Source: a virus. From it: a stretch of DNA of 64,000 nt. The stretch lies in IMG/VR virus record IMGVR_UViG_3300030333_002885, positions 11,598 to 75,597 of that record; one strand, given 5' to 3'. The notes under the pieces were generated by a model that ran no database searches, was not told the origin of the DNA, and was given only the letters and a program-made list of their open reading frames with translations. Shown one piece after another: positions 2,935-61,142 of the stretch. The first letter of the stretch is position 1, and each line of letters begins with the position of its first letter. The position numbers and the translations under genes were made by a program.

Positions 2935-3544
2935 CATTGATACTAATACAACACTGTTAGATTTCTCTCAGTATAATATTGATGAGGAAAAGATTGTTGT
3001 TATCGATAATCTATTTCCAAATTGGTTTATTAGTTATGTTCATCGTCAGATTATGGACTCGTCTGGATGGAGGTTCGGTCACTATACTGAGTCTAGAAAT
3101 CCAGAGAAAGAGATACCTGCATTTTCTCAGAAGATATTTCCTGACCCATTGTCACCTATATCTAATGACAGTTTATTCCCTATGATATATCATGCTGTTA
3201 CTCATAGTATGATAGACAATCCAGAGATAGGAGAGATATTAATTAACGGTCAGCAGTACTATCATAATACTATCTTCCATCAAGATTGTAAGGACAATGG
3301 TATTACTATGCTTTATTATGTTAATGCAAATGCTAAAGAAGAATGGGGTGGAGAGACACACATTAAAGTACCTACTAGTTCTAAAGATAGCATTACAAAT
3401 TCAGATGATATAATTAAAGTTGCTCCTAGACCAGGAAGAATTTGTTTATTCTTGGGTAAGTTAATGCATAAGGGAGAATCATTTAACTCTAAGACTAATA
3501 CTCTTAGAGCAACCATAGCATATAAGATAGGTAGAGATGGCTAA
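2927..3544 (+). CDS. 2OG-Fe(II) oxygenase
   Basis: HQD...WGGET...PRPGR...H...R metal/2OG-binding pattern. Confidence 0.8.
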   Translation: MISIDTNTTLLDFSQYNIDEEKIVVIDNLFPNWFISYVHRQIMDSSGWRFGHYTESRNPEKEIPAFSQKIFPDPLSPISNDSLFPMIYHAVTHSMIDNPEIGEILINGQQYYHNTIFHQDCKDNGITMLYYVNANAKEEWGGETHIKVPTSSKDSITNSDDIIKVAPRPGRICLFLGKLMHKGESFNSKTNTLRATIAYKIGRDG

Positions 3545-3968
3545 ACCATTTATTCATGAGAAAAAATTGGTTAAGGTATTTGTCAATGGAACCTTTGACT
3601 TACTACATCCAGGTCATATATCATTACTTAGCTGGGCAAAATCTCTTGGAGATTATCTTGTAGTTGGTATTGATACTGACGATAGAGTACGGGAAAAGAA
3701 AGGACCAACCCGTCCCATATATAATCAGACTGATAGAGGAATCATGCTTGTTGCTCTTGAATCAGTTGATGAGGTGACTTACTTTCATAGCGATGAATCT
3801 CTAGAGGCATTGGTAAAAGAAGTTAAACCTGATATAATGGTGGTAGGTTCTGACTGGAAAGATAAATCAGTCATAGGTTCCTACTGGGCTGCCGAATTAA
3901 AATTCTATGATAGGATAGAAGAGTATGCGACTTCAAAGACAGTACAATGTATTATTGATAGGGGATAG
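3537..3968 (+). CDS. ADP-heptose synthase nucleotidyltransferase domain (HldC / RfaE domain II)
   Basis: NGTFDLLHPGH (HxGH), KGPTRP, GSDW. Confidence 0.85.
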   Translation: MAKPFIHEKKLVKVFVNGTFDLLHPGHISLLSWAKSLGDYLVVGIDTDDRVREKKGPTRPIYNQTDRGIMLVALESVDEVTYFHSDESLEALVKEVKPDIMVVGSDWKDKSVIGSYWAAELKFYDRIEEYATSKTVQCIIDRG

Positions 3969-4710
3969 TTGCACCGATGAATGGGTGTATGGATCCTGTG
4001 ATCGTTTAAGTCCTGAAGGACCGATCCCTGTCATGAAGTATAGGGAGAAGCAGTCTGCTCCTGGTATGGCAGCGAATGTTTATGAGAATTTAAAGTCCCT
4101 TGGTATCAATGTAAACTTCTTGACTCATAAGGAGAAGATTACTAAGACAAGATATGTTCATGAGAAATCTAATCAACAGATCATGCGTCTGGATACAGAA
4201 CCAGAGGTAGAACCATTACATCCTTCTCAAATTACTATGGCAGCAGTGCATCAAAGTTATGATGCTGTTGTCATATCAGATTATGATAAGGGGTTTGTAT
4301 CTGTAGAAGACATTGAACATCTTGCTAGTAGGAATCCAGACATAAAAATATTTGTTGATACTAAGAAGAAGAAGTTACCTACACAGTATCCTAATATAGT
4401 ATATAAAATTAATCAGAAAGAATTTAATTTATTAGACCCAGATCATATACCTAAGGGTGAGAATATGATTGTAACTGCTGGTGCTGATGGTGCTCTATGG
4501 AATAAGAAACAGTTCCAAGTACCTATCACTAGAGTGTTTGATGTAACAGGTGCAGGTGATACATTCTTAGCAGCATTAGTCTTCTATTATATACAGTTAC
4601 CTTCTATGGAAGAGTCAATTGCTTTTGCTAATAGAGCAGCAGCAATTGCAGTCCAGAATCCTGGTACATATACTATGACTATGGAGGATGTGGATGGTAT
4701 CCTCAAATAA
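3925..4710 (+). CDS. PfkB-family heptose 7-phosphate kinase (HldA / RfaE domain I)
   Basis: RLSPEGPIPV, SDYDKG, DVTGAGDTF. Confidence 0.85.
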   Translation: MRLQRQYNVLLIGDSCTDEWVYGSCDRLSPEGPIPVMKYREKQSAPGMAANVYENLKSLGINVNFLTHKEKITKTRYVHEKSNQQIMRLDTEPEVEPLHPSQITMAAVHQSYDAVVISDYDKGFVSVEDIEHLASRNPDIKIFVDTKKKKLPTQYPNIVYKINQKEFNLLDPDHIPKGENMIVTAGADGALWNKKQFQVPITRVFDVTGAGDTFLAALVFYYIQLPSMEESIAFANRAAAIAVQNPGTYTMTMEDVDGILK

Positions 4711-5710
4711 TATATTATCTTATAATTGTTCTCATGATGCTGCTGTATGTTATTTAAAGGATGGTAAGATAGAATGGTTTATAGAAGAAGAAAGAGTAAG
4801 TAGAAAGAAGCATGATTACAGACCATACTTATCATTGGTTGATGGTGTTAGAAGAGTAGATGATATAGACATAGCATTGCATACTACATTACATCATACT
4901 GATGATCCAGAACTTGCTGACAGAGTATTAAATTTTACATGTGAATTGATACAGAAGGTGAAAGATAAACCTAATTTTATGGACTGTAGTGCTGAACATC
5001 ATTTACATCATGCAGCACTAGCATTTTATAACTCTGGGTTTGAAGAGGCAGCATGTCTTATTGTTGATGGTGCTGGAGCATATGTTGAGGGTGGAGGACA
5101 TGAGGTAGAGACAATTTATAAAGTATCTTATCCTCATTCATTTGATAAGATATATCAGAGAGCAGTACCTTGGTATAAAGGATCTACTTTGACTGACTAT
5201 ACTATTGGTATAGGATTTGTTTATGCTGGTATCAGTGAGTACCTTGGGTTTGGTACTCTAGGTTGTGGTAAACTCATGGGTCTTGCTCCTTATGGTAAGG
5301 AAGATCCTAATGTTAAATCATTTTTGGTAGATGGTGAGGTTGATAAAACCTTATGGGAGAGAGATCCTAATGGTGTTAAGTTTAAACCTTATGGTGATGT
5401 TAGTCCTGCTAATTTAGCATGGAGATGTCAGAAAGATTTTGAAACATATATGATTGCATTGATCAAGAAAGCATCAAAGGTTAGTAATAATATAGTATTG
5501 TCAGGAGGTTGTGCTCTAAATTGTGTAGCAAACTATGAGTACTTGAAACATCTTCCAGAAGGTGCTAAACTGTATGTCGAACCAGTGTCTAGTGATGCTG
5601 GTACTGCTGCTGGTATGGCAATGTATGGTTGGAGAAACCTTACTAAGTCAACAGAAATTTATCCTTTAAAAGATTTGTATTGGGGACCACAACATGAGAT
5701 ATTGCTTTGA
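4688..5710 (+). CDS. Carbamoyltransferase, N-terminal (Kae1-like) domain only
   Basis: SHD, EEERVSRKKH, HHLHHA, VDGAG, GKLMGLAPYG, SGGCALNC; ends at LYWGP with no C-terminal domain. Confidence 0.85.
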   Translation: MWMVSSNNILSYNCSHDAAVCYLKDGKIEWFIEEERVSRKKHDYRPYLSLVDGVRRVDDIDIALHTTLHHTDDPELADRVLNFTCELIQKVKDKPNFMDCSAEHHLHHAALAFYNSGFEEAACLIVDGAGAYVEGGGHEVETIYKVSYPHSFDKIYQRAVPWYKGSTLTDYTIGIGFVYAGISEYLGFGTLGCGKLMGLAPYGKEDPNVKSFLVDGEVDKTLWERDPNGVKFKPYGDVSPANLAWRCQKDFETYMIALIKKASKVSNNIVLSGGCALNCVANYEYLKHLPEGAKLYVEPVSSDAGTAAGMAMYGWRNLTKSTEIYPLKDLYWGPQHEILL

Positions 5711-6035
5711 TATAGATGGTACGATATGTACACCTGGTACATGTAAGTCGTGTCAGTATGAAGGTGCTACTCCCAAGAAGGAGAGGATAGAAAAGATTAA
5801 TAAGTTATATGAGGAGGGTCACTACATAATATACATGACTGCTCGTGCAATGGGTAGGAATCATGATCTTCCTAATGATGTAGCTACTGCACATGCAAAG
5901 GAAATTATAGAACCCCTTACTAAATTACAACTAGATATATGGGGGTGTAAATATCATGAGTTGATCTTTGGTAAACCTCATGCCGATCTCTTTATTGATG
6001 ATAAAGGCATAACCGATTATGATTTTTTTAAATGA
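5694..6035 (+). CDS. Small HAD-superfamily phosphatase
   Basis: FDIDGTI, TAR and GKP...IDDK motifs. Confidence 0.8.
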   Translation: MRYCFDIDGTICTPGTCKSCQYEGATPKKERIEKINKLYEEGHYIIYMTARAMGRNHDLPNDVATAHAKEIIEPLTKLQLDIWGCKYHELIFGKPHADLFIDDKGITDYDFFK

Positions 6036-6394
6036 AAGAAACTAAACCTAAATTTGTACCGAAAGGATGGGGTTGGGAGAAATGGATTGCCAATTCTCCT
6101 GAGTATTGTGGTAAGTTATTGTTTATTAAGAAGAACCACAGGTGCTCATGGCATTATCACATACTAAAAGATGAGACCTTCTACCTGCATTCAGGTATGA
6201 TTCATCTCTTCTATGGTAAGACAGATAATTTAGAGGATGCAAAGACTATGATCCTAGAACCTGGTGATAGTTTCCATTGTTGTAGGAAGACTAGACATCA
6301 GATGGTAGCAATACAAGATGCAGAATTATTTGAATTTTCTACACAGCATTTTGATGAGGATTCACACAGAGTTATACCTGGAGATACTCTTTAA
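6032..6394 (+). CDS. Cupin protein (sugar isomerase/epimerase-like)
   Basis: KGWGWE...SWHYH.LKDETF...H cupin pattern. Confidence 0.75.
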   Translation: MKETKPKFVPKGWGWEKWIANSPEYCGKLLFIKKNHRCSWHYHILKDETFYLHSGMIHLFYGKTDNLEDAKTMILEPGDSFHCCRKTRHQMVAIQDAELFEFSTQHFDEDSHRVIPGDTL

Positions 6395-7151
6395 CTGTTT
6401 TAAATTTGTAATCTTTTAACCAACTCATGTCAGCTATGGTATAATATTGGTACTTACCCTTTAAGTGAGGTGGAAATGGGATTGGAGACAATTTCGACCC
6501 AGTTTTTAATGAAACTAGTTGAGCTACAGTGTCAATTGTTATTGGCGATCCTGTGCCAAGATCGAATATGCCAGAACCCGCAGTGTTCGATAACACTACA
6601 TTCACCAGATCCCCAACCCACACATAGTCACGGTGTATCTGATCGCTCCCTTCAAACGGATGTATTTGACCAGTGGCAGCCTGCCATTGAAACTGACTGA
6701 CTAGTGATGCCATCTGTCCCTTATGATGCTCACCTGATCCATATACATTAAAGTATCTAAACCCCTGAACATATCTAAAGCGTTCTATATTATCTAAGAC
6801 CCAGTAATCTACTGTTGCTTTTGATAATGCATAGTAATTCAGGGGATTTATAATGCAAGATTGATTACCGTAGACAGATGCTGAACTGGCATACTTAACA
6901 GGGATACCATACTCTATTGCCTTCTCGAATAATTTAATACTAAAGTCTATATTATATTTGTATACCATCTCAAGGTTCTTGTTGGTTGTAGAGGACAACG
7001 CACCTTGATGGATAATCATATCTATCTTGTCCCAACTCTTGAAGTTATCTAAAAAGTCTAAACAATTTTCTAGGTCAACTTCAACTACACCATCGAGAGA
7101 ATTTTTAAAGTGTTTCCCAATGAATCCATCAGCACCTGTTAGAATATTCAT
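6372..7151 (-). CDS. hldD: ADP-L-glycero-D-manno-heptose 6-epimerase
   Basis: TGADGFIG, HQGALSSTT, YASSASVYG, YALSK, RYFNVYG..E.HKG.MAS, YQYYT.AD. Confidence 0.88.
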   Translation of the reverse strand: MNILTGADGFIGKHFKNSLDGVVEVDLENCLDFLDNFKSWDKIDMIIHQGALSSTTNKNLEMVYKYNIDFSIKLFEKAIEYGIPVKYASSASVYGNQSCIINPLNYYALSKATVDYWVLDNIERFRYVQGFRYFNVYGSGEHHKGQMASLVSQFQWQAATGQIHPFEGSDQIHRDYVWVGDLVNVVLSNTAGSGIFDLGTGSPITIDTVAQLVSLKTGSKLSPIPFPPHLKGKYQYYTIADMSWLKDYKFKTVKEYLQV

Positions 7152-7183
7152 GCCAAAATCTTTACTGTATATATTCTACCACA

Positions 7184-7191
7184 GATAAATA
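7184..7191 (+). promoter_or_regulatory. T4-type late promoter (GATAAATA)
   Basis: Variant of TATAAATA just upstream of the fibre gene. Confidence 0.55.
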
Positions 7192-7200
7192 CTAAAAAAA

Positions 7201-9954
7201 GTGCATAGAGCCGTGATAGGAAGACTCGCATCGTTAAAAACGACACTCCAGAAGGGTACAGTTAGTAACACTTTACTGTATACTGCTACTGAGATGGTAA
7301 CTGCTAATGTCTCGGCAGCAAACCAAACAGAAGAGAAGTTAACTCATTCAGTTGCTATCTCTGGTGATAAGTCTATTACAACCTTTGGGATTAGTGATGG
7401 AGGGACAGGATATGCAAATGGAACCAACATAGTACTGACTGGAGGTAATGGTACTGGAGCACTTGCTAATATTACAACTACAAATGGTGTTATAACAGAA
7501 TTAGAACTTGTTGATAATGGACAAGGATATGATATTGGTGATGTTCTTTCAGTAACAAATGCAAATGCAGATGGAGTTGCTACATTAACTGGTGTTAATA
7601 ATCCTGGTGATGGTTATGCTGTTGGTACACAAACAGATGTTGCTACTACTAGTAATGGATCAGGTACAGGATTGACTCTTGATCTTGTAGTTAATGTTAA
7701 CGGTAAGATTGAATCTGCCACTGTTAATACAGATGGAGAAGGGTACGCAGTCAATGAAATCATATCTATCAGTGGTGGTGATGGGTTTGGATCTGTAAGT
7801 GTTGCATCTATTCATGGTAACAGTGGACAAATTACAGTTCAAGATTCTACAGGTAATAAAGTTTCAGACTCCATTGCTTATGGTATTCCATTGGCAGTGG
7901 GTGGCAATGCAATGTATGATGATATTACATTGAAGCCAGGTGATTCAATATATGTTTCATCATCTAAACCTGGTGTAAGTTTTACTATCATTTCTAATAC
8001 AGCATACGGTAATGTTAATGCTGATGTTCAGAAAAATTTAGGTAGAGGTAATTCATATATTAGTAGCACTGCATTCCCACAGATCAATGATAATGTAGGA
8101 CTAGTTACTGCAAAGTATGATGGTGTTGCAACCATTCATGTATCAAATAGAAATTCAGATAAAATTGCTGCAGTCTCTGTTGGTATTGCTTCAGGAGATA
8201 TCAGTACCTTTGATGTTGCTGATTACTTTGTCTTTGGTCAGAGATTACAACCACTACAAGATTTAACGATAGACAATATAGGTATTGCTAGTGGTCAGAC
8301 TCTAGTTACTAGAGCATCAAAGACTGATGTAGCATTTGCTGCATACACCAAACCTATTGAACTTCAGTTTGCTGGTGTTGGTACTGATGGTAGTATTAAT
8401 ACTATTGGTGTCATCACTGCTACAGCATTTGCTGGTGATGGATCTGCTATCACTGGTGTGATCGCTGCTGGATCAGGTGTTAGTATTACTAGTAATGGAT
8501 CTCAGGTTGGTGTTGCTGCTACTATAGATTTTGGATCAGAATTTAATATTACTAATGTATCTGCTGGTGTTGCTACAATCACTGCTGGCACAGTACCTTT
8601 AGCAACTACTGCAGACTATGCTAACCTTGCTGGCATAGCAACAGTTGCTAACGAAGCAAACGCTCTTGCTGTAGGTGTTGCTGTTACTCTTGCAGATGTT
8701 GCTACTAATGCACTACAGTGTACAGGTAACGCTGCCACTGCTGATATTGCATCAGGTATTACGAGTAACTTTGATATCTTTACTAACAATCCTATTAGAA
8801 CTACTGACAAATTCTATGGTGATGGTAGTCAGTTAACAAATATTACTGCAACAGGTACTGGTATTGGTATCAGAAATAATAATAGTTTCGTAGGAACAGC
8901 ACAGACAGTAAACTTTGGGTTGAGTCTTGATACTATCATCTCATCCTCTGGTGTTGCTACTATCACTGTTCAGAAGGTTCCTCATGCTGACATCTGTGGT
9001 GTCTCTAGTTACTCAGACAAGTGTGGTGTTGCTACCTATGCAACTAACGCAGGGATCGCTTCACAGGCGACCAATGCTACCTTTGCTAACACTTCGTCAT
9101 TCTCTACCTTAACAGGTGCTGCAGAGACCTCCAAGAGTCTTTACACAGAGCATAAAGCAAACTTCTTACCACTACCTGTTACTCTTGGTACTAAAACTGT
9201 CAACCATAGGTACTATGGTATTGGATCTGATAGATCAGTAAACATTCAGGGATATGAGTCACCTTACTTAAGGTTTGAAGTTGGACAGACATATAGATTT
9301 GAGAATGCATCACAGCAAGCAACTTATCCTATTACATTCTATACATCAGCATCAGGTGATCCAGTAGGTTATGGTAGTACCACACCTTCTGTAATGACAC
9401 AGGATGTTACTGTGACTGGATCTTATACAGAGATTACTGTTACTGAGTACACACCATCTTTATTCTATTATGGTGTTGGAGTTGGTACTACTATGGGTAG
9501 TATGGGTAACTCCATTCAGGTGTTTAACTCTGAGATGAATAGAGTCCTTAAGGTAGGAGAGTATAAGAATACTGCTGGACTTAAGACATGTACACACACT
9601 CAAATGTTTGAGGGTCGTGCTACTGCATGGTATATGAACACCAACTTAGGTGTAGGTAACAGTGACTATGTTCCTGGAGATCGTTCACATAATGTTAGTT
9701 CGATTGAGCAGTCATCTACTGGTGTTTACACAGTTAACTTTGCTGATGCAATGAATGATAATAATTATGCTGTAGTAATAAATGGTAGAGGTACTAATAA
9801 TTTCCCAGGTGGTTTGGTCAGGGGAACAGTATTTGACAGGACAACAACAGGATTTGGTGTTACAATATACAACGGGATCCCTGCTCCAGAAGACCTACGA
9901 GATGTTAACATCGTTGTGTATGGAGGACAAGACGGAGAACCTGCCTTCCTATAA
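7201..9954 (+). CDS. Tail fibre / virion structural protein
   Basis: G/T/S/A-rich; GxGY repeats, FAGDGSAITG and FYGDGSQLTN fibre repeats; C-terminal NVSSI..TG.Y.VNF...M...NY domain. Confidence 0.7.
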   Translation: MHRAVIGRLASLKTTLQKGTVSNTLLYTATEMVTANVSAANQTEEKLTHSVAISGDKSITTFGISDGGTGYANGTNIVLTGGNGTGALANITTTNGVITELELVDNGQGYDIGDVLSVTNANADGVATLTGVNNPGDGYAVGTQTDVATTSNGSGTGLTLDLVVNVNGKIESATVNTDGEGYAVNEIISISGGDGFGSVSVASIHGNSGQITVQDSTGNKVSDSIAYGIPLAVGGNAMYDDITLKPGDSIYVSSSKPGVSFTIISNTAYGNVNADVQKNLGRGNSYISSTAFPQINDNVGLVTAKYDGVATIHVSNRNSDKIAAVSVGIASGDISTFDVADYFVFGQRLQPLQDLTIDNIGIASGQTLVTRASKTDVAFAAYTKPIELQFAGVGTDGSINTIGVITATAFAGDGSAITGVIAAGSGVSITSNGSQVGVAATIDFGSEFNITNVSAGVATITAGTVPLATTADYANLAGIATVANEANALAVGVAVTLADVATNALQCTGNAATADIASGITSNFDIFTNNPIRTTDKFYGDGSQLTNITATGTGIGIRNNNSFVGTAQTVNFGLSLDTIISSSGVATITVQKVPHADICGVSSYSDKCGVATYATNAGIASQATNATFANTSSFSTLTGAAETSKSLYTEHKANFLPLPVTLGTKTVNHRYYGIGSDRSVNIQGYESPYLRFEVGQTYRFENASQQATYPITFYTSASGDPVGYGSTTPSVMTQDVTVTGSYTEITVTEYTPSLFYYGVGVGTTMGSMGNSIQVFNSEMNRVLKVGEYKNTAGLKTCTHTQMFEGRATAWYMNTNLGVGNSDYVPGDRSHNVSSIEQSSTGVYTVNFADAMNDNNYAVVINGRGTNNFPGGLVRGTVFDRTTTGFGVTIYNGIPAPEDLRDVNIVVYGGQDGEPAFL

Positions 9955-54206: not shown

Positions 54207-55539
54207 GAGAATTGCTGTTGTTGGTGCAGGTGTTGTTGGTGTTAATACATTACTAAGGTTAATTGATGAAAGATATCCTGGAGTTCATCTTACATGGATA
54301 TATGATTCAAAAATACCTATATTTGGTATTGGTGAATCAACTACACCAGATTTACCATCACAAATAGCACATAGTACAAATATAGTTAATCCTCATGTAA
54401 AGAAATACTTTGATGGTACTATTAAATTTGGTAATAAATTTATTGGATGGGGTAAGAAACATAATTTTATAAGATGGTTAGATATGCACTCTGTAGGTAT
54501 CCATTTTGATACTAAAGAGTTTACAAAATTCTTTATAGAATACTTACCATCTCATACACCAGAGTTAGATTTAATAGATGAAACTATTACACAATTAAAC
54601 TTTACATCTGATTCAGTATATGTTAATACTCATAAGTTTGATTTTGTTATAGATTGTACTGGTGGTAAATCATTAATAGATCACGATCAATTTTTTGATT
54701 CAACATTTGTATCAGTTAATACTGCACTAGCATTGAGATTACCTGAACCTGCTGATTGGGGTGTGACTATAACTTATGCCCATAGAAATGGGTGGATGTT
54801 TGGTATACCATTACAATCTAGGAGAACATTTGGATACTTATATAATGATAATGTAACAACTGAAGAGGAAGCATTAAAAGATTTTAGAACTATTATACCT
54901 GAAGCATTAGGTTATCCATATAAGAAGTTTTCATGGAAACCACAATTATCGAGGTATGTATTACATCATAGTGGAAGATATGCAAGAAATGGTAATGCTG
55001 TTGGATTTCTTGATCCATTAGAGTCATTAGCAGGATATTATTATGATAGAATATCTAACGAAGTATGTGCATTTGCATTAGGTAATAATCCTAATGATAT
55101 TGATACTATTAATAAAGTTAATGACTGGTATTATACAACAGTTATTGATGACTGGTATAAGAATATGGCGTGGATGTATCATTTTGGATCAAAATATGAT
55201 TCACTATTCTGGAGAAATATGGTAGCAGATTCAAGAGATCTTCTTAATAATAAAGAGATCAATGATTTTAATATATTAAATAAGGATCAGAATTTTACTG
55301 AAGATCTATTTAATATTATTGGTGATGATCCTCATTTAGTGAGAGATTTTATACTTAATAGAGTACATGATTATATCGGACATAATTTACATAATTTTGC
55401 TGGTAATTATAGAGATTTTGTTGAGTGGTCTTATGGTATGGGTGCTGACTATGCCCATAAGTTTCCATTATTAGTTCCACCTATAGATCTTAATGAGGAA
55501 TGGGGTGAATTGTCATTCGACACTAGGTCACTTAAATAA
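54193..55539 (+). CDS. Tryptophan-halogenase-like flavoprotein (PrnA family)
   Basis: VVGAGVVG, GIGEST, GTIKFG..F.GW, IDCTG, GWMFGIPL, GNA.GFLDPLES. Confidence 0.85.
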   Translation: MNTSKRIAVVGAGVVGVNTLLRLIDERYPGVHLTWIYDSKIPIFGIGESTTPDLPSQIAHSTNIVNPHVKKYFDGTIKFGNKFIGWGKKHNFIRWLDMHSVGIHFDTKEFTKFFIEYLPSHTPELDLIDETITQLNFTSDSVYVNTHKFDFVIDCTGGKSLIDHDQFFDSTFVSVNTALALRLPEPADWGVTITYAHRNGWMFGIPLQSRRTFGYLYNDNVTTEEEALKDFRTIIPEALGYPYKKFSWKPQLSRYVLHHSGRYARNGNAVGFLDPLESLAGYYYDRISNEVCAFALGNNPNDIDTINKVNDWYYTTVIDDWYKNMAWMYHFGSKYDSLFWRNMVADSRDLLNNKEINDFNILNKDQNFTEDLFNIIGDDPHLVRDFILNRVHDYIGHNLHNFAGNYRDFVEWSYGMGADYAHKFPLLVPPIDLNEEWGELSFDTRSLK

Positions 55540-55582
55540 CTGTCACTTTGTCACCACAATTTACTTAAAACTTCTGTATAAT
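55527..55582 (+). promoter_or_regulatory. Early promoter with upstream motif (copy 2)
   Basis: GTCACTTAAATAACTGTCAC ... TATAAT. Confidence 0.6.
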
Positions 55583-56321
55583 GAAAATACCTAAGAGATC
55601 CGAAATGACTGCTGCTGCTATTGCTGGTAAAACTGCTAAGAGAGTAGGTCACGAGTATGAGCATAGACTTGCTGAATTATTTGATAGTTTATTTGGTGGT
55701 GAACATAAGGTAGATGGTAGACCACAGACTAAGGTAGATATGTATGAGGAGAATACTAATAGAAAGTATTCTATTAAAAGTATATCAAAGAATCATACTC
55801 AGGTAGCATTATTGTCTACTGATAAGTTTATTAAACACTTTAAGATTAGAGGACATAGTGAGACATTCCTTAGAATGTTCTTTGGTTATCCTAATAAAGA
55901 GTTAAAATCTATTGTACAAGATATTCACCCTGATTTAAATCTTAGTGATAAAGAAATTAAACAAAATAGAGTATATAGAGATAATATTGATAAAAAGATA
56001 ACAACTGCATTTGTTAAATGGATGAATAAAAACAAATGTAAAATATTTGATGTTATTGTAAGAAGGGGATTTAATGGTGATGCAGTTGATACTGTTATAT
56101 TTCATACTAAAGGATCAGAATTACTTAGAATGGTAGCAGTAAATATGATGGAAAAGCAGGTGGAGACTGGGGTTTGGACATTAAATAATACTACATTAGA
56201 ATTCAGATTAGCAGATGGTAAGAAACTATTTCATTTACAAATGAAAGGGTCAGGAAAGAAATACAATTCAGGGTATCATGGTATGATGTTCCACATATAT
56301 AATATTAACTATAACAAATGA
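55581..56321 (+). CDS. Putative restriction-endonuclease-like nuclease (true start probably 55605)
   Basis: G..AK..G...E, KVD...YSIK (PD-(D/E)XK-like), LQMKGSG. Confidence 0.5.
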   Translation: MKIPKRSEMTAAAIAGKTAKRVGHEYEHRLAELFDSLFGGEHKVDGRPQTKVDMYEENTNRKYSIKSISKNHTQVALLSTDKFIKHFKIRGHSETFLRMFFGYPNKELKSIVQDIHPDLNLSDKEIKQNRVYRDNIDKKITTAFVKWMNKNKCKIFDVIVRRGFNGDAVDTVIFHTKGSELLRMVAVNMMEKQVETGVWTLNNTTLEFRLADGKKLFHLQMKGSGKKYNSGYHGMMFHIYNINYNK

Positions 56322-56324
56322 AAC

Positions 56325-56624
56325 ATGGCATCATATAATATTACACTAAAGGATCCTCAAGGTGGATTAGTTGGTCAATTTGATTGTGCTGATGATGTAT
56401 CAATATTAGATCAATTAGAAGAAGAAGGTTTAGATCATCCCTCATCATGTCGTGCTGGTGCATGTTCATCTTGTGCTATGAAATTAGAGGAAGGTAGTGT
56501 TAATCAGGAAGATCAATCATTCTTAGATGATGACCAAATAGAAGATGGATATGTGTTAACATGTGTAGCAACACCTACCTCAGATTGTGTTATAATAACT
56601 GAACAGGAAGAAAATTTGTATTAA
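56325..56624 (+). CDS. petF: Plant-type [2Fe-2S] ferredoxin
   Basis: [28 protein letters not shown]. Confidence 0.97.
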
Positions 56625-56713
56625 TGGAACAATCTTTAGAAATTGGTGGCACATTGCTATTTTTGGCATTAGGTGTTATAATAACATGGTATCAGTCCAA
56701 ATATTTTAAATGA
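56624..56713 (+). CDS. 29-aa single-TM peptide
   Basis: Hand-translated [29 protein letters not shown]; coupled to genes on both sides. Confidence 0.6.
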   Translation: MEQSLEIGGTLLFLALGVIITWYQSKYFK

Positions 56714-56919
56714 CAGCACCAATTCCTGATTGGACTAGACCTGAGAAAAGAAGAAATCAGGTTAAATCCAAATTTTATTATATCTTCTGGGGTATAGCAA
56801 CATTCTCTGTAGTAGCAGGTCAACTCTATGTTGGTAGTGGTTATAGAGCATATGCCAACGCATTGATGAGAATCTTTGATACTATTGAGGTAGAATTTAA
56901 TCAACCGAGGTTTTACTAA
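56710..56919 (+). CDS. Small membrane protein
   Basis: QVKSKFYYIFWGIAT.SVV.GQ.YVG.GY. Confidence 0.7.
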   Translation: MTAPIPDWTRPEKRRNQVKSKFYYIFWGIATFSVVAGQLYVGSGYRAYANALMRIFDTIEVEFNQPRFY

Positions 56920-57323
56920 TGTTAGATAAACTATACTCTACTATTATGAATAGAGGTGTTAAACAACAATTTAGTAACACCGACATTTATGAATCACCTG
57001 ATGGTGGTAATACTGTATATGTTAGAAAAGCAAATCAAGATCCTAAATTTAGATCTAGGGTTATTATAAACCATGATGATCCATTTATTGATGAATTGTT
57101 ATCAAAAGGTTATACATTTGATATTGCTAATTCATGGTATCGTAGAAAATGGACAACAAATCAAGGTGCTGAATCTATAGAAGAAGTTTACCAAATGTTA
57201 GAGCATGGTGAGGAAAAATCATGGAAACATTTGATGATAGGGTATGGTAATAAGATATTTTATGAAGAACCAGTCGAGAAAGTGTCACACAAGGGGGTTG
57301 GCAAGGACTTAGATCTGCTATAA
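56919..57323 (+). CDS. Hypothetical protein
   Basis: IYESPDGG.TVY.R motif. Confidence 0.65.
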   Translation: MLDKLYSTIMNRGVKQQFSNTDIYESPDGGNTVYVRKANQDPKFRSRVIINHDDPFIDELLSKGYTFDIANSWYRRKWTTNQGAESIEEVYQMLEHGEEKSWKHLMIGYGNKIFYEEPVEKVSHKGVGKDLDLL

Positions 57324-57324
57324 T
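57270..57324 (+). promoter_or_regulatory. Early promoter with upstream motif (copy 3)
   Basis: CCAGTCGAGAAAGTGTCAC ... TTGGCA ... TGCTATAAT. Confidence 0.75.
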
Positions 57325-57330
57325 GAGTAT

Positions 57331-57468
57331 GCGAAACAGTCAAGGGATCACTGAGTTTGGATCTAGACTGCGATCATCTGGAGTCATGGATTATGCCTCT
57401 CCAGTAACTGATTAAGCAGTCATATGACGATTCAGTAATTGACTACCCTCAGTCCCTTGATGTTTCGC
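57331..57468 (+). ncRNA. Candidate structured RNA A
   Basis: Nested helices GCGAAACA/TGTTTCGC, TCAAGGGA/TCCCTTGA, CTGAG/CTCAG, GACTGC/GCAGTC, CTGGAG/CTCCAG; starts 7 nt after TATAAT. Confidence 0.7.
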
Positions 57469-57495
57469 TCACCTACACATTGCATTTATTATTCT

Positions 57496-57819
57496 ATGCC
57501 AACTGCTGCTACTGTTACGAAAAAGGTATCTACAACCCCTCGTAAAAGACGCACTCGTAAAGTAACAACAACTGCTAAAACAACACCTGTTAAGAAGTCT
57601 GTTACTAAGGCAACACCAAAGAAATTAAAAAGACCTGCTAAACCAGTTTTAACTCTTAATCACTATAAGAGAGACTTCCAGTCAAGAGTTAAGATTCATA
57701 ATTATGAGTTTAACTTATTTGTGGAAGATTGCAAAAAAGGTTTACAGTTAGTAGAGAAATCTGCTCTTAGTTTCTATAAGTATGCCACCGAGTCTTACAA
57801 AACACACTTCAATGTGTGA
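57496..57819 (+). CDS. Basic protein with a K/T/P-rich N-terminus
   Basis: MPTAATVTKKVSTTPRKRRTRK...KKLKRPAKP. Confidence 0.75.
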   Translation: MPTAATVTKKVSTTPRKRRTRKVTTTAKTTPVKKSVTKATPKKLKRPAKPVLTLNHYKRDFQSRVKIHNYEFNLFVEDCKKGLQLVEKSALSFYKYATESYKTHFNV

Positions 57820-57874
57820 CAGTCAGTAAACTGAACACCAACCCCCTTCACAGGGGGTTTTTTAATGGTATAAT
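57816..57874 (+). promoter_or_regulatory. Early promoter with upstream motif (copy 4), overlapping a terminator
   Basis: GTGACAGTCAGTAAACTGAAC ... TGGTATAAT. Confidence 0.65.
57840..57863 (+). terminator. Intrinsic terminator
   Basis: AACCCCCT-TCAC-AGGGGGTT followed by a T run. Confidence 0.85.
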
Positions 57875-57880
57875 ATATGT

Positions 57881-58090
57881 GTTGACGAGATATGTGGTTC
57901 TACTGCCCGAACATTGACTGCCGATCCCATAAGCAACTCGGAGTCATCAGTAGGGGTTCAGGTGTAAGCGATTCCCAGTAGGTAAATTTGGGCATATAGG
58001 TGAAACCTATGTTGATGCCCCACTCTCCCAACTGCTGCTAGTCCCTTTGGTGGTTTCAGACTAGGAGGCGATAGGAAACCACCATTTTTC
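57881..58090 (+). ncRNA. Candidate structured RNA B with alternative pairings and a terminal terminator-like helix
   Basis: Multiple helices (see findings); GC-rich intergenic stretch starting 7 nt after TATAAT. Confidence 0.65.
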
Positions 58091-58104
58091 TTTATAATGA
58101 GTCT

Positions 58105-58398
58105 ATGACTAAGTTTTACTATCAAACTTATGACAATTATAAGTATCCTACTGTAAACTCACAACAGTTGTGGAGACAATACCCACCAACTTATAATGAG
58201 GTACAGAATAAATGGAAATTATCATTGTTAGAAAAATGTGAAACAAGTGGTCAAATTTGGGATGTAATTAACAGTAAATTGTGGGTTAAATCATTTACTG
58301 CACTATTACATAAGGCAAAGACTTATCCCGTAGTGTATGATAAATGGGGTATACTTCGCAAAAACTTTCTAAATAATCTTATAGAAAAGGATGATTAA
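58105..58398 (+). CDS. Hypothetical protein
   Basis: ORF track. Confidence 0.6.
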   Translation: MTKFYYQTYDNYKYPTVNSQQLWRQYPPTYNEVQNKWKLSLLEKCETSGQIWDVINSKLWVKSFTALLHKAKTYPVVYDKWGILRKNFLNNLIEKDD

Positions 58399-58400
58399 TT

Positions 58401-58580
58401 ATGTCGTATACACAACAAGTTACTTACAAAAAACTACCACATGGTCGCAAAGAGTATACTGATGAGGTATTTGCATCAACACCAAATGCTGCTAAAGTAT
58501 TAATTGAAGCAAAACTTGGTGGTACTGAAATTGCAATCATTAAATGTTTGACAACTGTTCCACCTGTATCTCCCTCTTAA
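58401..58580 (+). CDS. 59-aa hypothetical protein
   Basis: Hand-translated MSYTQQVTY...EVFASTPNAAKVLIEAKLG; AAGGA RBS. Confidence 0.6.
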   Translation: MSYTQQVTYKKLPHGRKEYTDEVFASTPNAAKVLIEAKLGGTEIAIIKCLTTVPPVSPS

Positions 58581-58590
58581 ATTATTAATT

Positions 58591-58743
58591 ATGACTGCTT
58601 ATCGTACTGCTACAGTTACATTTTATCGTAACGATATGGGTTTGTTAAATGTTGATGTTCCAGCAACAAATTATGACTCTGCTGTTAGAACAATCAATGA
58701 AATGTATGGAAATGTTGAAATTAAGAGAGTTAATCTTAATTAA
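58591..58743 (+). CDS. 50-aa hypothetical protein
   Basis: Hand-translated MTAYRTATVTF...VDVPATNYDSAVRTINEMYG. Confidence 0.65.
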   Translation: MTAYRTATVTFYRNDMGLLNVDVPATNYDSAVRTINEMYGNVEIKRVNLN

Positions 58744-59711
58744 TGAAAAATACTATATTATATGGTGATTGTCGCCAAACTCTTGATACTTTAAAATCAC
58801 AAATTACCATAGGTATTTGTGATAAACCTAGAATGTGTGTTACATCCCCACCTTATTACGGTTTGCGTGATTATGGTGGGGAATCTTCACAAATAGGACA
58901 AGAACAAACACCTGAAGAATATATTCAGGAAATGGTTAATGTATTATCTAAGGTGAGAGATTGTCTTGCTGATGATGGTACATTGTGGTTAAACATAGGT
59001 GATAGTTATTATAACTATCGTCCTGGAAAATCATATCCTAAACAAACATTTAGTAAGACTAAACAAGACCTACCTGATTATACACCAAAGAGAGCAAATC
59101 GTCTCACTAATTATAAAGAAAAGGATTTAATTGGCATCCCTTGGATGTTAGCATTTGCATTAAGATCAGATGGATGGTATTTAAGACAAGATATTATATG
59201 GCATAAACCTAATCCAATGCCTGAAAGTGTGAGAGATAGATGTACTAAATCACATGAATATATCTTCCTATTAAGTAAAAATAAGAACTATTATTATGAC
59301 AATGAAAGTATCAAGGAACCTGCTAAAGATTGGGGTACTCGTGATAGAACTAATGGTAAATATCACAATAAAGGTACAGGATTAAATCCTCATACTGGTC
59401 TCACTAAATCATATCCAAAAAAGAATAAAAGGTCAGTTTGGAGTATAACAAAGAAACCATATAAAGGTGCTCATTTTGCAACATTCCCTGAAGATTTAAT
59501 TATACCATGTATTAAAGCAGGATCACAAAAGGGTGATATTATACTAGATCCATTTATGGGAAGTGGCACAACAGCAGTCGTAGCTAGGGATTTGGGTAGG
59601 CATTATATAGGTTGTGAATTGCATAAAGAATATAGTAAACTAATAGATGAGCGTGTGCCAGAAAATAAAGTGGTACACAATGCCCTGACAGATGCCCTTG
59701 ATGGACTATAA
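58743..59711 (+). CDS. Beta-class DNA methyltransferase (N4-C/N6-A)
   Basis: VTSPPY before DPFMGSGTT; WHKPNPMPES, HFATFP. Confidence 0.93.
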   Translation: MKNTILYGDCRQTLDTLKSQITIGICDKPRMCVTSPPYYGLRDYGGESSQIGQEQTPEEYIQEMVNVLSKVRDCLADDGTLWLNIGDSYYNYRPGKSYPKQTFSKTKQDLPDYTPKRANRLTNYKEKDLIGIPWMLAFALRSDGWYLRQDIIWHKPNPMPESVRDRCTKSHEYIFLLSKNKNYYYDNESIKEPAKDWGTRDRTNGKYHNKGTGLNPHTGLTKSYPKKNKRSVWSITKKPYKGAHFATFPEDLIIPCIKAGSQKGDIILDPFMGSGTTAVVARDLGRHYIGCELHKEYSKLIDERVPENKVVHNALTDALDGL

Positions 59712-59712
59712 T
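59655..59712 (+). promoter_or_regulatory. Early promoter with upstream motif (copy 5)
   Basis: GTGCCAGAAAATAAAGTGGTACAC ... CTGACA ... TATAAT. Confidence 0.7.
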
Positions 59713-59740
59713 AAAAGAGTAAACAAATTAAAGGCATTTT

Positions 59741-60238
59741 ATGGTAACAGCAGTCCCAACAATCGCAGTTTTTCCAGAAGAAAAACTAACACTCAGTCAG
59801 AAGATTGAAAAGTGGACTTGGCAATATTGCAGAGCATTAGAAGATAATTATAGAGATTATCATAAGAGAATGATAACAGCAAATTCTGAAAGATATGATG
59901 GTGAGTTATCACAATATGCACAAGATCAGTTAGATGCTCTTAATAATGGCACTGCTAATTTAATGAAATTCCGTATGGAATTTGGTAGAAAGTATATTAA
60001 AATTATACAACAAGATTATCGTGATGCTAATGAGTATTATAACACACCAGCAGGTTATAGAGATGGAAGTGTACACGCATTTGTTGATAAGAATACAGGT
60101 GAAGTTTATAAACCAGCATCCTGGAAATCACCTCACACAAAATATGTAAGATTTGATCTTAGAATTATATCAGATAGAGTTAAACTGCATGATCCTAAGT
60201 TTGTAGGATGGGCAGGTGGTTATCTATACTTAAGGTGA
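59741..60238 (+). CDS. Conserved phage early protein
   Basis: GRKYIKI, SVHAFVD..TG.VYKPASWK.P, WAGGYLY. Confidence 0.8.
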   Translation: MVTAVPTIAVFPEEKLTLSQKIEKWTWQYCRALEDNYRDYHKRMITANSERYDGELSQYAQDQLDALNNGTANLMKFRMEFGRKYIKIIQQDYRDANEYYNTPAGYRDGSVHAFVDKNTGEVYKPASWKSPHTKYVRFDLRIISDRVKLHDPKFVGWAGGYLYLR

Positions 60239-60243
60239 TTAAT

Positions 60244-60375
60244 ATGAACAAATTTGAAATAACATTTGATGAGCAATATCAACTCATTAAATTATATGAT
60301 CTCTTAAGAGATAACGGTATGATCGAAGATTTACCATCTGAGATTACAACATTCTTTGAAAAACTATTGGACTAA
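60244..60375 (+). CDS. 43-aa hypothetical protein
   Basis: Hand-translated MNKFEITFDEQ...; AGGTG RBS. Confidence 0.55.
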   Translation: MNKFEITFDEQYQLIKLYDLLRDNGMIEDLPSEITTFFEKLLD

Positions 60376-60380
60376 TTATC

Positions 60381-60593
60381 ATGCTTATGTCATTACATTT
60401 TGGTCGTCATTTCTGGTTAGATGATGATAACGATTTGATGAGTTGCCCTACATTTGTTGATGGTAACCCTGACACATTGAACGAGGATTATGTTAGAGAG
60501 TGGATGGATTTAGAGGGTGTTGATTTAGGTAAACTATTGGATATTTACAAGACATTGTTATTAGATAGAGAGGTAATTTCATGCACAAATTAA
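60381..60593 (+). CDS. Hypothetical protein
   Basis: FGR.FW.D...SCPTF.DG.PD. Confidence 0.7.
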   Translation: MLMSLHFGRHFWLDDDNDLMSCPTFVDGNPDTLNEDYVREWMDLEGVDLGKLLDIYKTLLLDREVISCTN

Positions 60594-60784
60594 CATATAG
60601 TGACTCACCATTCTATTCTAATTGGTCACAAACTTATTTTACTAATTTAACATTAAGTGAACACATTGCTAATAATAATTGGTTAATGCGTACACTTTCT
60701 ATGTTAAAAGATGATGGTGTATTATATGTTCCTATTCTTAACAAATCATTCAACAAATTAGGTGAGGAAATTGTTAATGACTAA
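60581..60784 (+). CDS. Hypothetical protein
   Basis: GAGG RBS; MLKDDGVLYVP.LNKSFNKLGEE. Confidence 0.7.
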   Translation: MHKLTYSDSPFYSNWSQTYFTNLTLSEHIANNNWLMRTLSMLKDDGVLYVPILNKSFNKLGEEIVND

Positions 60785-61142
60785 AGAAATGACCTATGAT
60801 GAGTGTATTGCGGATGGATGGGAAATGACAGGTGACGGATTCTGGATCAAAGAAACCAGTGAACAAAGTGGCACAAGAGAGGTTGAATATGCACCAGATA
60901 ACGAGTATATTGATAATGTACTAATTGAGGGACTTATGCAACCAGTTGAAACAGCAACTGACTCTGTGCAATATGCGTGGGGTGCTGAAATCTTGAATGA
61001 TCACAATGATCTACAAGTTGAAGAGTATGAAAAGTTAATCGAACTTGTATTCAATGAGATTAAAAAAGAATACAAAGACGATCAAACTTGTCGTTTTAAT
61101 TCACTCTTACTAGGTAAACTTCTCATTCTTGCTAATCAATGA
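60777..61142 (+). CDS. Hypothetical protein; probable internal second start at 60936
   Basis: Contains an internal early promoter and GAGGGA RBS before MQPVETA. Confidence 0.55.
   Translation: MTKEMTYDECIADGWEMTGDGFWIKETSEQSGTREVEYAPDNEYIDNVLIEGLMQPVETATDSVQYAWGAEILNDHNDLQVEEYEKLIELVFNEIKKEYKDDQTCRFNSLLLGKLLILANQ
60856..60911 (+). promoter_or_regulatory. Early promoter with upstream motif (copy 6)
   Basis: CCAGTGAACAAAGTGGCACA ... TTGAAT-17 nt-TATATT. Confidence 0.7.

What the first reader, a model, noticed from the sequence alone, without database searches (positions are those of the whole stretch)
57881..58090. Candidate ~210-nt ncRNA or switch with duplicated pairing partners and a terminator/pseudoknot module
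Seen: it starts 7 nt after TATAAT. Closing helix GTTG..GAGA..GTGG pairs with CCAC-TCTC-CCAAC. CTACTG (57900) can pair with either CAGTAG (57948 or 57976). GGGCA (57990) can pair with either TGCCC (57904 or 58016). There are hairpins TGACT.CCGA/TCGGAGTCA and ATAGGT-GAA-ACCTAT. In the 3' module, CTAGTC/GACTAG interleaves with a 10-bp TGGTGGTTTC/GAAACCACCA helix followed by a T run. Inference: a riboswitch-like leader, ribozyme or early sRNA. I do not recognise the family.
Basis: partly seen in the sequence, partly recalled or inferred. Interest (0 to 1): 0.75.

Follow-up and report, generated by a model that had tools for sequence, protein, structure and literature searches.

The report
Uncatalogued cyanophage early RNA with pseudoknot

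Summary
Window 57881-58090 lies between genes in a T4-like cyanomyovirus fragment. It holds an extended -10 early promoter, a ~153-nt multi-helix core (57881-58032), a 3' H-type pseudoknot (58032-58084) and a U-run.

The core belongs to a family found in at least 160 IMG/VR contigs, in Prochlorococcus phages P-SSM2 and P-SSM5, and in viruses from single-cell genomes. Covariation supports all five helices: 95.9% of cells pair, 23 of 30 pairs change on both sides, and the score is 0.379 against 0.148 for shuffles. G-U pairs place the RNA on the + strand. Both pseudoknot helices also covary.

Rfam 15 has no match, even at E<=10. The motif is absent from 185,579 prokaryote genomes apart from one stray contig. 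Four marine metatranscriptomes carry the core at depths far above the flanking genes.

Best reading: a stable early phage RNA whose invariant junction nucleotides bind an unknown partner. Function is inferred, not shown.

This scan has already found the same family in other genomes and reached the same conclusion. New here: the pseudoknot terminator, the sarcin-ricin-like motif in P3, and the test that rejects the switch.

The parts
57818..57836 (+). Imperfect palindrome GACAGT-N6-ACTGAAC, overlapping the stop codon of the upstream ORF. It is the upstream element of this phage group's early promoters.
   Evidence: ACAGT-N6-8-ACTGTCAC lies at the same distance upstream of the -10 box in dozens of family members. 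Noted independently on this window by earlier finding e1-6059710.
57840..57865 (+). Terminator hairpin of the upstream gene (AACCCCCTTCACAGGGGGTT plus a T-run). It overlaps the -35 region of the next promoter.
   Evidence: Terminator scan, 8 pairs. The same hairpin-then-promoter layout occurs in many related loci.
57847..57874 (+). Early-type sigma-70 promoter: TTCACA, 16-nt spacer, TG-n-TATAAT (extended -10).
   Evidence: Best promoter match in 55000-61000, 11 of 12 with TG. In about 50 of 120 distinct family members a -10-like hexamer ends 2-12 nt (mostly 4-7) before P1.
57881..57890 (+). P1 5' strand, GTTGACGAGA. The predicted transcript start lies at about 57880-57882.
   Evidence: Pairs with 58024-58032 as 4 bp, an internal loop (A57885 C57886 / C58028), then 4 bp. 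All 8 P1 pairs show double changes in the family.
57894..57897 (+). P1b 5' strand, GTG(G).
   Evidence: Pairs with (C)CAC 58020-58023. In the family GTGG/CCAC alternates with ACGG/CCGT and with GTGG/CCGT (two G-U pairs).
57900..57905 (+). P2 5' strand, CTACTG.
   Evidence: Pairs with CAGTAG 57976-57981. All six pairs have compensatory changes (CTACTG, CCTATG, CCATAG, CTCTAG, GCTATG, CCCGTA).
57906..57955 (+). P3: base CCC 57906-57908 / GGG 57953-57955, then GAA 57909-57911 opposite AGTA 57949-57952 (sarcin-ricin/loop-E-like), then a strain-specific extension hairpin at 57913-57947.
   Evidence: CM alignment. P3 base compensations CCTC/GAGG and CTCC/GGAG. P3 content ranges from 12 to 229 nt in three classes; the GAA...AGTA class is conserved. 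Assigning it to the loop-E motif rests on established knowledge of that motif.
57956..57975 (+). J3/2, GTTCAGGTGTAAGCGATTCC: a 20-nt junction that is almost invariant.
   Evidence: The only variation seen is at three positions.
57976..57981 (+). P2 3' strand, CAGTAG.
57982..57989 (+). J2/4, GTAAATTT: conserved single-stranded junction containing the palindrome AAATTT.
   Evidence: Invariant or nearly invariant columns in A1 and A2.
57990..58020 (+). P4 hairpin: GGGCA/TGCCC, inner stem TATAGG/CCTATG, invariant GG-TGAAA-CC tip, 3' bulge TTGA.
   Evidence: 100% of cells paired. Three outer pairs and one inner pair show double changes (GGGCA/TGCCC alternating with GGACT/AGTCC and GGTCT/AGACC).
58020..58032 (+). 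3' strands of P1b and P1, (C)CAC TCTC C CAAC.
58032..58084 (+). 3' H-type pseudoknot module. Helix A is 58035-58043 with 58059-58067. Helix B is 58048-58057 with 58075-58084. Loops are CCTT, A and GCGATAG.
   Evidence: 24 distinct copies aligned (A3). Helix A has double changes in 6 of 9 pairs and helix B in 2 of 10; 95.1% of cells pair. The module always follows the core P1 directly.
58085..58093 (+). U-run (TTTTTCTTT). Together with helix B it forms an intrinsic-terminator-like 3' end, giving a predicted RNA of about 205-213 nt.
   Evidence: Sequence. A T-run follows helix B in only about 8 of 25 copies.

Best explanation
This is a gene for a discrete, abundant, early-expressed phage RNA of about 210 nt.

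How it is made and folds:
- Host RNA polymerase starts about 7 nt after an extended -10 promoter.
- The first nucleotides pair at once with the 3' end of the core (P1 and P1b). This closes a three-way junction (P1b, P2, P4) and seals the 5' end.
- P2 carries a second junction holding P3, a tolerant site for inserts. The window's P3 has a sarcin-ricin-like motif and a private hairpin.
- About 45 nearly invariant unpaired nucleotides (J3/2, J2/4 and the P4 tip) form the functional surface.
- A 3' H-type pseudoknot follows. Its second helix plus a U-run ends the transcript and caps the 3' end.
- The downstream ORF has its own TATAAT box.

Shown: the family, its fold, its strand, its restriction to phages, and its presence and high depth in ocean RNA libraries.

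Inferred: the transcript ends, and that the invariant junction binds a specific partner in trans (a host or phage protein, or a small ligand) during host takeover. In relatives that lack the terminator, the same domain would sit as the 5' leader of an early mRNA.
For: - Promoter and terminator.
- Family size: at least 119 contigs per capped scan and more with variant motifs, plus P-SSM2, P-SSM5 and single-cell-genome viruses.
- CM hit in the window: 111 bits, E 2e-26, single copy.
- Usually one copy per genome, including a 100%-complete 202-kb genome and P-SSM2.
- Covariation in every helix.
- G-U/U-G 105 versus A-C/C-A 28 in paired cells, which fits a + strand RNA.
- P3 insert lengths are not multiples of three, so the region is not coding.
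- A -10 box lies 4-7 nt before P1 in many copies.
- Upstream and downstream genes are unrelated across copies.
- Absent from prokaryote genomes.
- Contigs from four marine metatranscriptomes of four studies cover the core. Summed depth is 41-7267, against 16 or less on the flanking ORFs.
Against: - No binding partner, ligand or activity is known.
- Transcript ends are predicted only. The runs were contigs, which cannot show ends or strand.
- The depth pools many related phages that share the core.
- In 36 of 112 distinct copies an ORF starts within 30 nt of P1 with no terminator, so there the domain is a 5' leader rather than a separate RNA.
- Only about 8 of 25 pseudoknot copies carry the U-run.
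- Helix B has a 17-nt loop, which is atypical for an intrinsic terminator and was missed by the simple scan.
Confidence: 0.5

Rival explanations
1. A cis-acting regulatory leader. The core would act on its own transcript as a ligand-sensing riboswitch or attenuator, or as an RNA-polymerase-modifying processive antiterminator in the manner of HK022 put or EAR. It would set how much transcription passes the pseudoknot terminator into the downstream early genes.
For: - It always sits at the head of a same-strand transcription unit, directly after an early promoter.
- 36 of 112 copies lie within 30 nt of a start codon.
- In the window a terminator-like helix plus U-run follows.
- Many invariant unpaired nucleotides, as in aptamers.
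Against: - Both alternative pairings proposed for a switch fail covariation.
- The only complementarity between the P1/P1b 3' strand and helix B (CCAC with GUGG) is lost in copies whose helix B reads GGTAGTTTC, while P1b is unchanged.
- Downstream genes fall into at least 27 unrelated clusters, so no ligand-related regulon appears.
- 3' modules are swapped freely between copies.
- The window's downstream ORF has its own TATAAT 7 nt before its ATG.
- No Rfam riboswitch or antiterminator family matches.
Confidence: 0.22
2. RNA 'punctuation' and stability element. The folded core and the pseudoknot would serve mainly to mark processing sites in early transcripts and to shield the resulting ends from host RNases (RNase E, RNase J, 3' exonucleases). 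There would be no trans-acting partner other than those nucleases.
For: - The 5' end is buried in P1 and the 3' end in a pseudoknot.
- In many relatives the core is chained to, or nested with, other conserved folded modules. These often end in GTAAGTCC just before P1.
- The core reaches a much higher depth than the flanks.
Against: - Simple end protection does not need about 45 invariant unpaired nucleotides or a specific three-way junction.
- There is one copy per genome rather than one per gene.
- No cleavage sites have been observed.
Confidence: 0.18
3. A self-cleaving or otherwise catalytic RNA of a new class. It would free itself from upstream modules or from the downstream mRNA.
For: - An invariant junction core of ribozyme-like size.
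- Copies that are preceded by other modules instead of a promoter would need a processing event to create the P1 5' end.
Against: - No match to hammerhead, twister, twister-sister, hatchet, pistol, HDV-like or hairpin models in Rfam 15.
- Promoter-proximal copies need no cleavage.
- No read-end evidence.
Confidence: 0.07
4. A DNA-level element, such as a replication origin, a recombination or packaging site, or a small protein gene, rather than an RNA.
For: It lies in a recombination-prone region, and short ORFs overlap it on the - strand.
Against: - Strand-specific G-U pairs.
- Compensatory changes in five long-range helices and in a pseudoknot.
- Insert lengths are not multiples of three.
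- High depth in RNA libraries.
Confidence: 0.03

Closest known systems
Uncatalogued modular early RNAs of cyanomyoviruses, reported earlier by this scan on other genomes (e1-6074759, e1-5725395, e1-6089368, e1-6086212, e1-5885658)
   Same: Same core family: shared words, the same architecture, no Rfam match, and the same nesting and chaining with other modules.
   Different: The window's copy has a private P3 hairpin on a sarcin-ricin-like base, a 1-nt irregularity in P1, and the 3' pseudoknot used as a terminator. Those notes are unpublished AI notes, not literature.
manA (RF01745), wcaG (RF01761) and PhotoRC-II (RF01717) motifs of T4-like cyanophages (Weinberg et al. 2010, PMC2864571)
   Same: Orphan, covariation-supported structured RNAs of marine cyanomyoviruses. 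They sit in intergenic regions ahead of heterogeneous genes, and their function is unknown.
   Different: No sequence or structure match: cmscan found none in the window, at E<=10, or in 120 kb of related loci. The fold differs, with two stacked junctions plus an optional pseudoknot. This family was found only in phage DNA.
T4 small stable RNAs rnaC and rnaD (species 1 and 2 RNAs)
   Same: Abundant small stable RNAs of a T4-type phage with unknown function. Some relatives of the present family lie next to phage tRNA genes, according to earlier notes.
   Different: No CM match over T4 70908-71171; best score is about 3-6 bits, E>2. The T4 RNAs are processed from the tRNA cluster transcript and are not promoter-proximal.
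HK022 put RNA and EAR (cis-acting processive antitermination RNAs)
   Same: A folded RNA placed directly downstream of early promoters, with terminators further downstream. This is a functional analogy only.
   Different: No homology was detected. Antitermination is untested, and there is one copy per genome at a non-conserved position.
Promoter-early stem-loop (PeSL) cassettes of T4-type phages
   Same: The upstream terminator hairpin at 57840-57859 overlaps the -35 region of the early promoter, and the region is mosaic.
   Different: PeSLs are short regulatory cassettes. The RNA described here is the transcribed product downstream of such a cassette.

Membership tests
Cyanomyovirus core RNA family (model R1, built here) | P1, P1b, P2, P3 and P4 in this order, with the invariant J3/2, J2/4 and GG-UGAAA-CC tip | tested here: met
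   cmsearch 111.3 bits, E 2e-26, full-length 1-134 at 57879-58045. All motifs are present.
Cyanomyovirus core RNA family (model R1, built here) | Helices supported by compensatory changes across members | tested here: met
   23 of 30 pairs show double changes, and 0 of 500 shuffles reach the observed score. A MAFFT-only alignment gives the same helices.
Riboswitch (generic) | Mutually exclusive alternative pairing (expression platform) conserved across members | tested here: not met
   The alternative partners are complementary in only 23 of 52 and 58 of 112 copies, against 102 of 112 and 112 of 112 for the real ones. 3' modules vary freely.
Riboswitch (generic) | Consistent association with genes of one pathway | tested here: not met
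   At least 27 unrelated downstream ORF clusters, mostly small proteins of unknown function.
Riboswitch (generic) | Specific ligand binding | not testable with these tools
   Needs in-line probing or ITC.
Any Rfam 15 family (including manA, wcaG, PhotoRC, known ribozymes, riboswitches, xrRNA) | Covariance-model score at or above the gathering threshold | tested here: not met
   No matches in the window at gathering. Nothing inside 57881-58036 at E<=10, and only DicF at 12.4 bits (E 6.3) over the 3' module. Nothing relevant for the minimal member. Nothing in 120 kb of related loci.
H-type pseudoknot | Two interleaved helices (A5'-B5'-A3'-B3'), each supported by covariation | tested here: met
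   Helix A has double changes in 6 of 9 pairs and helix B in 2 of 10. 95.1% of cells pair, against 31-51% when slid.
Intrinsic (Rho-independent) terminator | Stable G+C-containing stem immediately followed by a U-run | tested here: inconclusive
   A 10-bp helix B is followed by TTTTT. Helix B adds about -14 kcal/mol to the core-only structure energy (-48.8 vs -34.8 kcal/mol). The loop is 17 nt and knotted, so the scan did not call it. Termination was not measured.
tRNA / tmRNA | Cloverleaf recognised by ARAGORN | tested here: not met
   No genes found in the window.
T4 rnaC / rnaD | Homology detectable by the family model | tested here: not met
   No significant R1 match over the annotated rnaC and rnaD.

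The most novel reading that the evidence does not exclude
The core is a new functional RNA class specific to ocean cyanomyoviruses. Its invariant junction would either sense a small molecule or carry out chemistry (a new riboswitch or ribozyme), or it would reprogram host RNA polymerase or an RNase at the start of infection. The 3' pseudoknot would be a new kind of knotted terminator or 3' cap. Either way it would be one of the most abundant viral non-coding RNAs in the surface ocean.
Probability: 0.2. Interest if true: 0.85.

Novelty: new variant of a known kind. Interest (0 to 1): 0.62.

Why it matters
T4-like cyanophages kill a large share of Prochlorococcus and Synechococcus each day, yet how they take over the host early in infection is poorly understood. 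They lack the T4 regulators that redirect host RNA polymerase.

A phage-only RNA that is highly conserved, has a complex fold, is made from early promoters and is abundant in ocean metatranscriptomes is a concrete, testable candidate for an RNA-based takeover or regulatory device.

The family is present in a cultured phage (P-SSM2, 56697-56831), so experiments are possible. For RNA biology it adds a large orphan family with an unusual modular build: a core that accepts other folded modules nested in P3, and a knotted terminator.

Tried and rejected
- **Rfam.** Searched at gathering and at E<=10 on the window, on the minimal member and on 15 related loci. Nothing relevant.
- **tRNA/tmRNA scan.** None found.
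- **Thermodynamic significance.** z = -0.25 on the + strand and -1.10 on the - strand. This is uninformative, and the MFE fold is not the conserved fold.
- **Pseudoknot between the P4 loop UGAA and J3/2 UUCA.** Rejected. The J3/2 base varies (UUCA, UACA, UGCA) while the loop is invariant, and it shows no correlated column beyond lineage effects.
- **T-box-like 'specifier' reading of UNC-A in J3/2.** No support.
- **Hairpin GGGG...CCC around J3/2 instead of P3.** Rejected by the CCTC/GAGG and CTCC/GGAG compensations.
- **Antiterminator pairing of CCAC with helix B GUGG.** Not kept in copies with GGTAGTTTC.
- **Host homologue or antisense target.** The 21-mer occurs once in 185,579 prokaryote genomes, on a 1.9-kb contig of a Poseidoniales MAG that is probably mis-binned phage DNA.
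- **Conserved neighbouring gene.** None upstream or downstream.
- **T4 rnaC/rnaD homology.** None.
- **Literature.** Five full-text searches found no description. The IMG/VR catalogue of 8,495 candidate structured RNAs (PMC10690425) may include it, but its supplements are not held, so prior listing cannot be excluded.
- **RNA runs.** Only assembled contigs were available. They show presence and pooled depth, not ends, strand or this exact phage's expression.

Full report
**Setting.** The window is part of a 75.6-kb fragment of an uncultured T4-like cyanomyovirus. All nearby genes run on the + strand. They include a ferredoxin, an N6/N4 DNA methylase, DUF7717 and several small ORFs with no family.

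The flagged stretch fills the 285-nt gap between ORF 57439-57819 and ORF 58105-58398. Just upstream lie three elements:
- an imperfect palindrome, GACAGT-N6-ACTGAAC (57818-57836);
- the terminator hairpin of the upstream gene (57840-57859, followed by Ts);
- the best promoter match of the region, TTCACA-16-TGgTATAAT (57847-57874).

**Checking the observation.** Folding energy does not set the region apart from shuffled sequence (z = -0.25). The MFE fold (-59.3 kcal/mol) also differs from the conserved fold, which scores -48.8 for the core plus helix B. Helix A adds roughly 9 kcal/mol more. The case therefore rests on comparative evidence.

**Relatives.**
- blastn found the central ~90 nt in Prochlorococcus phages P-SSM2 and P-SSM5. 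In P-SSM2 it lies in the unannotated gap between PSSM2_070 and PSSM2_071. It also found it in five viruses from single-cell genomes.
A second pattern added members in which the 22-mer varies at three positions.
- A covariance model built from 33 short members finds one full-length copy in the window (57879-58045, 111 bits, E 2e-26). It finds one copy each in the window's own record, in P-SSM2, in a 100%-complete 202-kb genome and in three fragments. One contig has two copies within 1 kb.
- The motif is absent from 185,579 prokaryote genomes except for one 1.9-kb contig in an archaeal MAG. It is therefore phage-specific and not borrowed from the host.

**Structure.**
- RNAalifold on the MAFFT alignment, and pair counts on the 101-sequence model alignment, agree on five helices.
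  - P1: GAGRGA/TCYCTC and extensions.
  - P1b: GTGG/CCAC, alternating with ACGG/CCGT.
  - P2: six pairs, each with two to five pair types.
  - P3: CCCC/GGGG.
  - P4: GGGCA...TGCCC, with an inner stem.
- 95.9% of cells pair, against 82.1% in shuffles. 23 of 30 pairs have changes on both sides. The covariation score is 0.379, against 0.148 for shuffles and at most 0.088 for slid partners.
- A divergent member (L152) keeps the fold with a completely different P1, P1b and P2.
- G-U/U-G cells outnumber A-C/C-A cells 105 to 28, so the folded strand is the + strand.
- About 45 unpaired positions are invariant or nearly so: J3/2 GUUCAGGUGUAAGCGAUUCC, J2/4 GUAAAUUU and the P4 tip GG-UGAAA-CC.

**P3 is the variable site.** Its content ranges from 12 to 229 nt, with lengths that are not multiples of three. 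It falls into three classes:
- a minimal hairpin;
- a class opening with CCC-GAA and closing with AGUA-GGG;
- a class carrying a ~90-nt module.

The window belongs to the second class and has a private hairpin at 57913-57947. GAA opposite AGUA is the signature of the sarcin-ricin/loop-E (bulged-G) motif. That assignment comes from established knowledge of the motif, not from a test here.

**The proposed switch.**
- It stays AGTAG when P2 is CCTATG or GCTATG. It is fully complementary to the P2 5' strand in only 23 of 52 such copies, whereas the true partner pairs fully in 102 of 112.
- Likewise GGGCA pairs with its downstream TGCCC in 112 of 112 copies, but with the upstream xxCCC in only 58 of 112.
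- Neither alternative helix is under selection.

**The 3' module.**
- In 25 distinct copies, 24 of them aligned in A3, the module CTGC-NNN-NNNNC-CC-TTT-GGTRGTTTC-A-G-NNNN-NNN-GGC-GATAG-GAAACYACC follows the core P1 directly.
- Helix A covaries at 6 of 9 pairs: TAGTC/GACTA, AACCC/GGGTT, ATGTC/GACAT, AATCC/GGATT, ATTCC/GGAAT. Helix B covaries at 2 of 10.
- This is an H-type pseudoknot. The loops CCUU, A and GCGAUAG are conserved.
- A U-run follows helix B in the window and in about a third of copies. In the others the transcript must continue into further modules or an ORF.
- In the window the next ORF has its own TATAAT (58093-58098) ending 7 nt before its ATG.

**Context across the family.**
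- In about 50 of 120 distinct copies a -10-like hexamer ends a few nucleotides before P1, mostly 4-7 nt. It is usually preceded by the ACAGT...ACTGTCAC palindrome and often by a terminator hairpin.
- A second group is preceded by a conserved YTAAAGTGT box.
- A third group is preceded by other folded modules that tend to end in GTAAGTCC.
- Downstream same-strand ORFs fall into at least 27 unrelated clusters. 36 of 112 start within about 30 nt of P1. Upstream ORFs are equally varied.

**Expression.**
- Four marine metatranscriptomes from four studies contain contigs on the core. Summed k-mer depth over 57938-58004 is 175, 41, 7267 and 126. Depth on the flanking ORFs is 16 or less.
- One contig of depth 667 covers the window-type P3 insert with 7 mismatches over 88 nt.
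- The caveats are serious. These are contigs, so no ends or strand can be read. The core is shared by many phages, so the depth is pooled. DNA carry-over cannot be excluded.

**Comparison with known RNAs.**
- Rfam 15 has no match at gathering. Inside the core it has none at E<=10. The same holds for the minimal member and for 120 kb of related loci that contain all the associated modules.
- No tRNA or tmRNA was found.
- T4 rnaC and rnaD do not match the model.
- Five literature searches found no description.
- A 2023 catalogue of 8,495 candidate structured RNAs from IMG/VR (PMC10690425) could list it, but its supplements are not held.
- This scan has met the same family on other genomes. Its earlier follow-ups reached the same basic conclusion: a real, modular, uncatalogued RNA of unknown function.

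**Interpretation.** The evidence fits a self-contained RNA domain placed at the very start of an early transcript.
- In this window it is bounded by a promoter and a knotted terminator, so it should accumulate as a separate RNA of about 210 nt.
- The degree of conservation of unpaired nucleotides points to a specific partner or activity, not mere end protection.
- Several things speak against a classical riboswitch: no gene association, a single copy per genome, freely exchanged 3' modules and the failed switch test.
- Cis-acting roles remain open, including antitermination and leader functions in the copies that abut an ORF. Processing or stability punctuation and catalysis also remain open.
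- I put about 0.5 on a trans-acting, partner-binding early RNA and spread the rest over these rivals. None of the functional steps has been shown.

Noticed in passing
window 58093-58107: TATAAT at 58093-58098 ends 7 nt before the ATG (58105) of the next ORF, and there is no Shine-Dalgarno sequence. This looks like a leaderless or near-leaderless early mRNA.
   Followed up: no
window 57818-57836, and upstream of many family members (e.g. L041, L088, L030): The palindrome ACAGT-N6-8-ACTGTCAC sits at a fixed distance upstream of the -10 box of early promoters, often with a terminator hairpin between them. It is probably a binding site for a dimeric factor. Also flagged on this window by another first-stage finding.
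   Followed up: partly
related loci, e.g. L001:1380-1455, L109, L124, L043: Other conserved folded modules precede the core or are nested in it. One example is GCAAGGATCTATGGTTGTCTCTGTTCAGCAGAGAAATTACGTCC, whose hairpin covaries; another is ACATACATCCATTTTTGGTTAGGAG. Many end in GTAAGTCC or GTAAGACC just before the next module, which could be a processing signal.
   Followed up: partly
related loci with the TGTGAGGGA-type P1 (e.g. L013, L016, L074): A different conserved upstream box, (GGGGGGAC)GCATAAAGTGTCC, ends about 10 nt before P1. It may be a second promoter class driving the same RNA.
   Followed up: no
window 57439-57819: The upstream ORF encodes a protein rich in Lys, Arg and Thr (phrog_27005). 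Homologues lie downstream of the RNA in four other contigs (L092, L108, L112, L131). This is a loose and unexplained association.
   Followed up: partly
L167 (CAZRCY010000231.1, 1.9 kb): The only prokaryote-genome hit to the core motif is a short contig binned into a Poseidoniales archaeon MAG. It is probably cyanophage DNA that was mis-binned.
   Followed up: no
L019:1205-1339 and 2114-2260 (- strand): One viral contig carries two copies of the core within 1 kb on the same strand. One has the pseudoknot module and a long P3, and the other is minimal.
   Followed up: no
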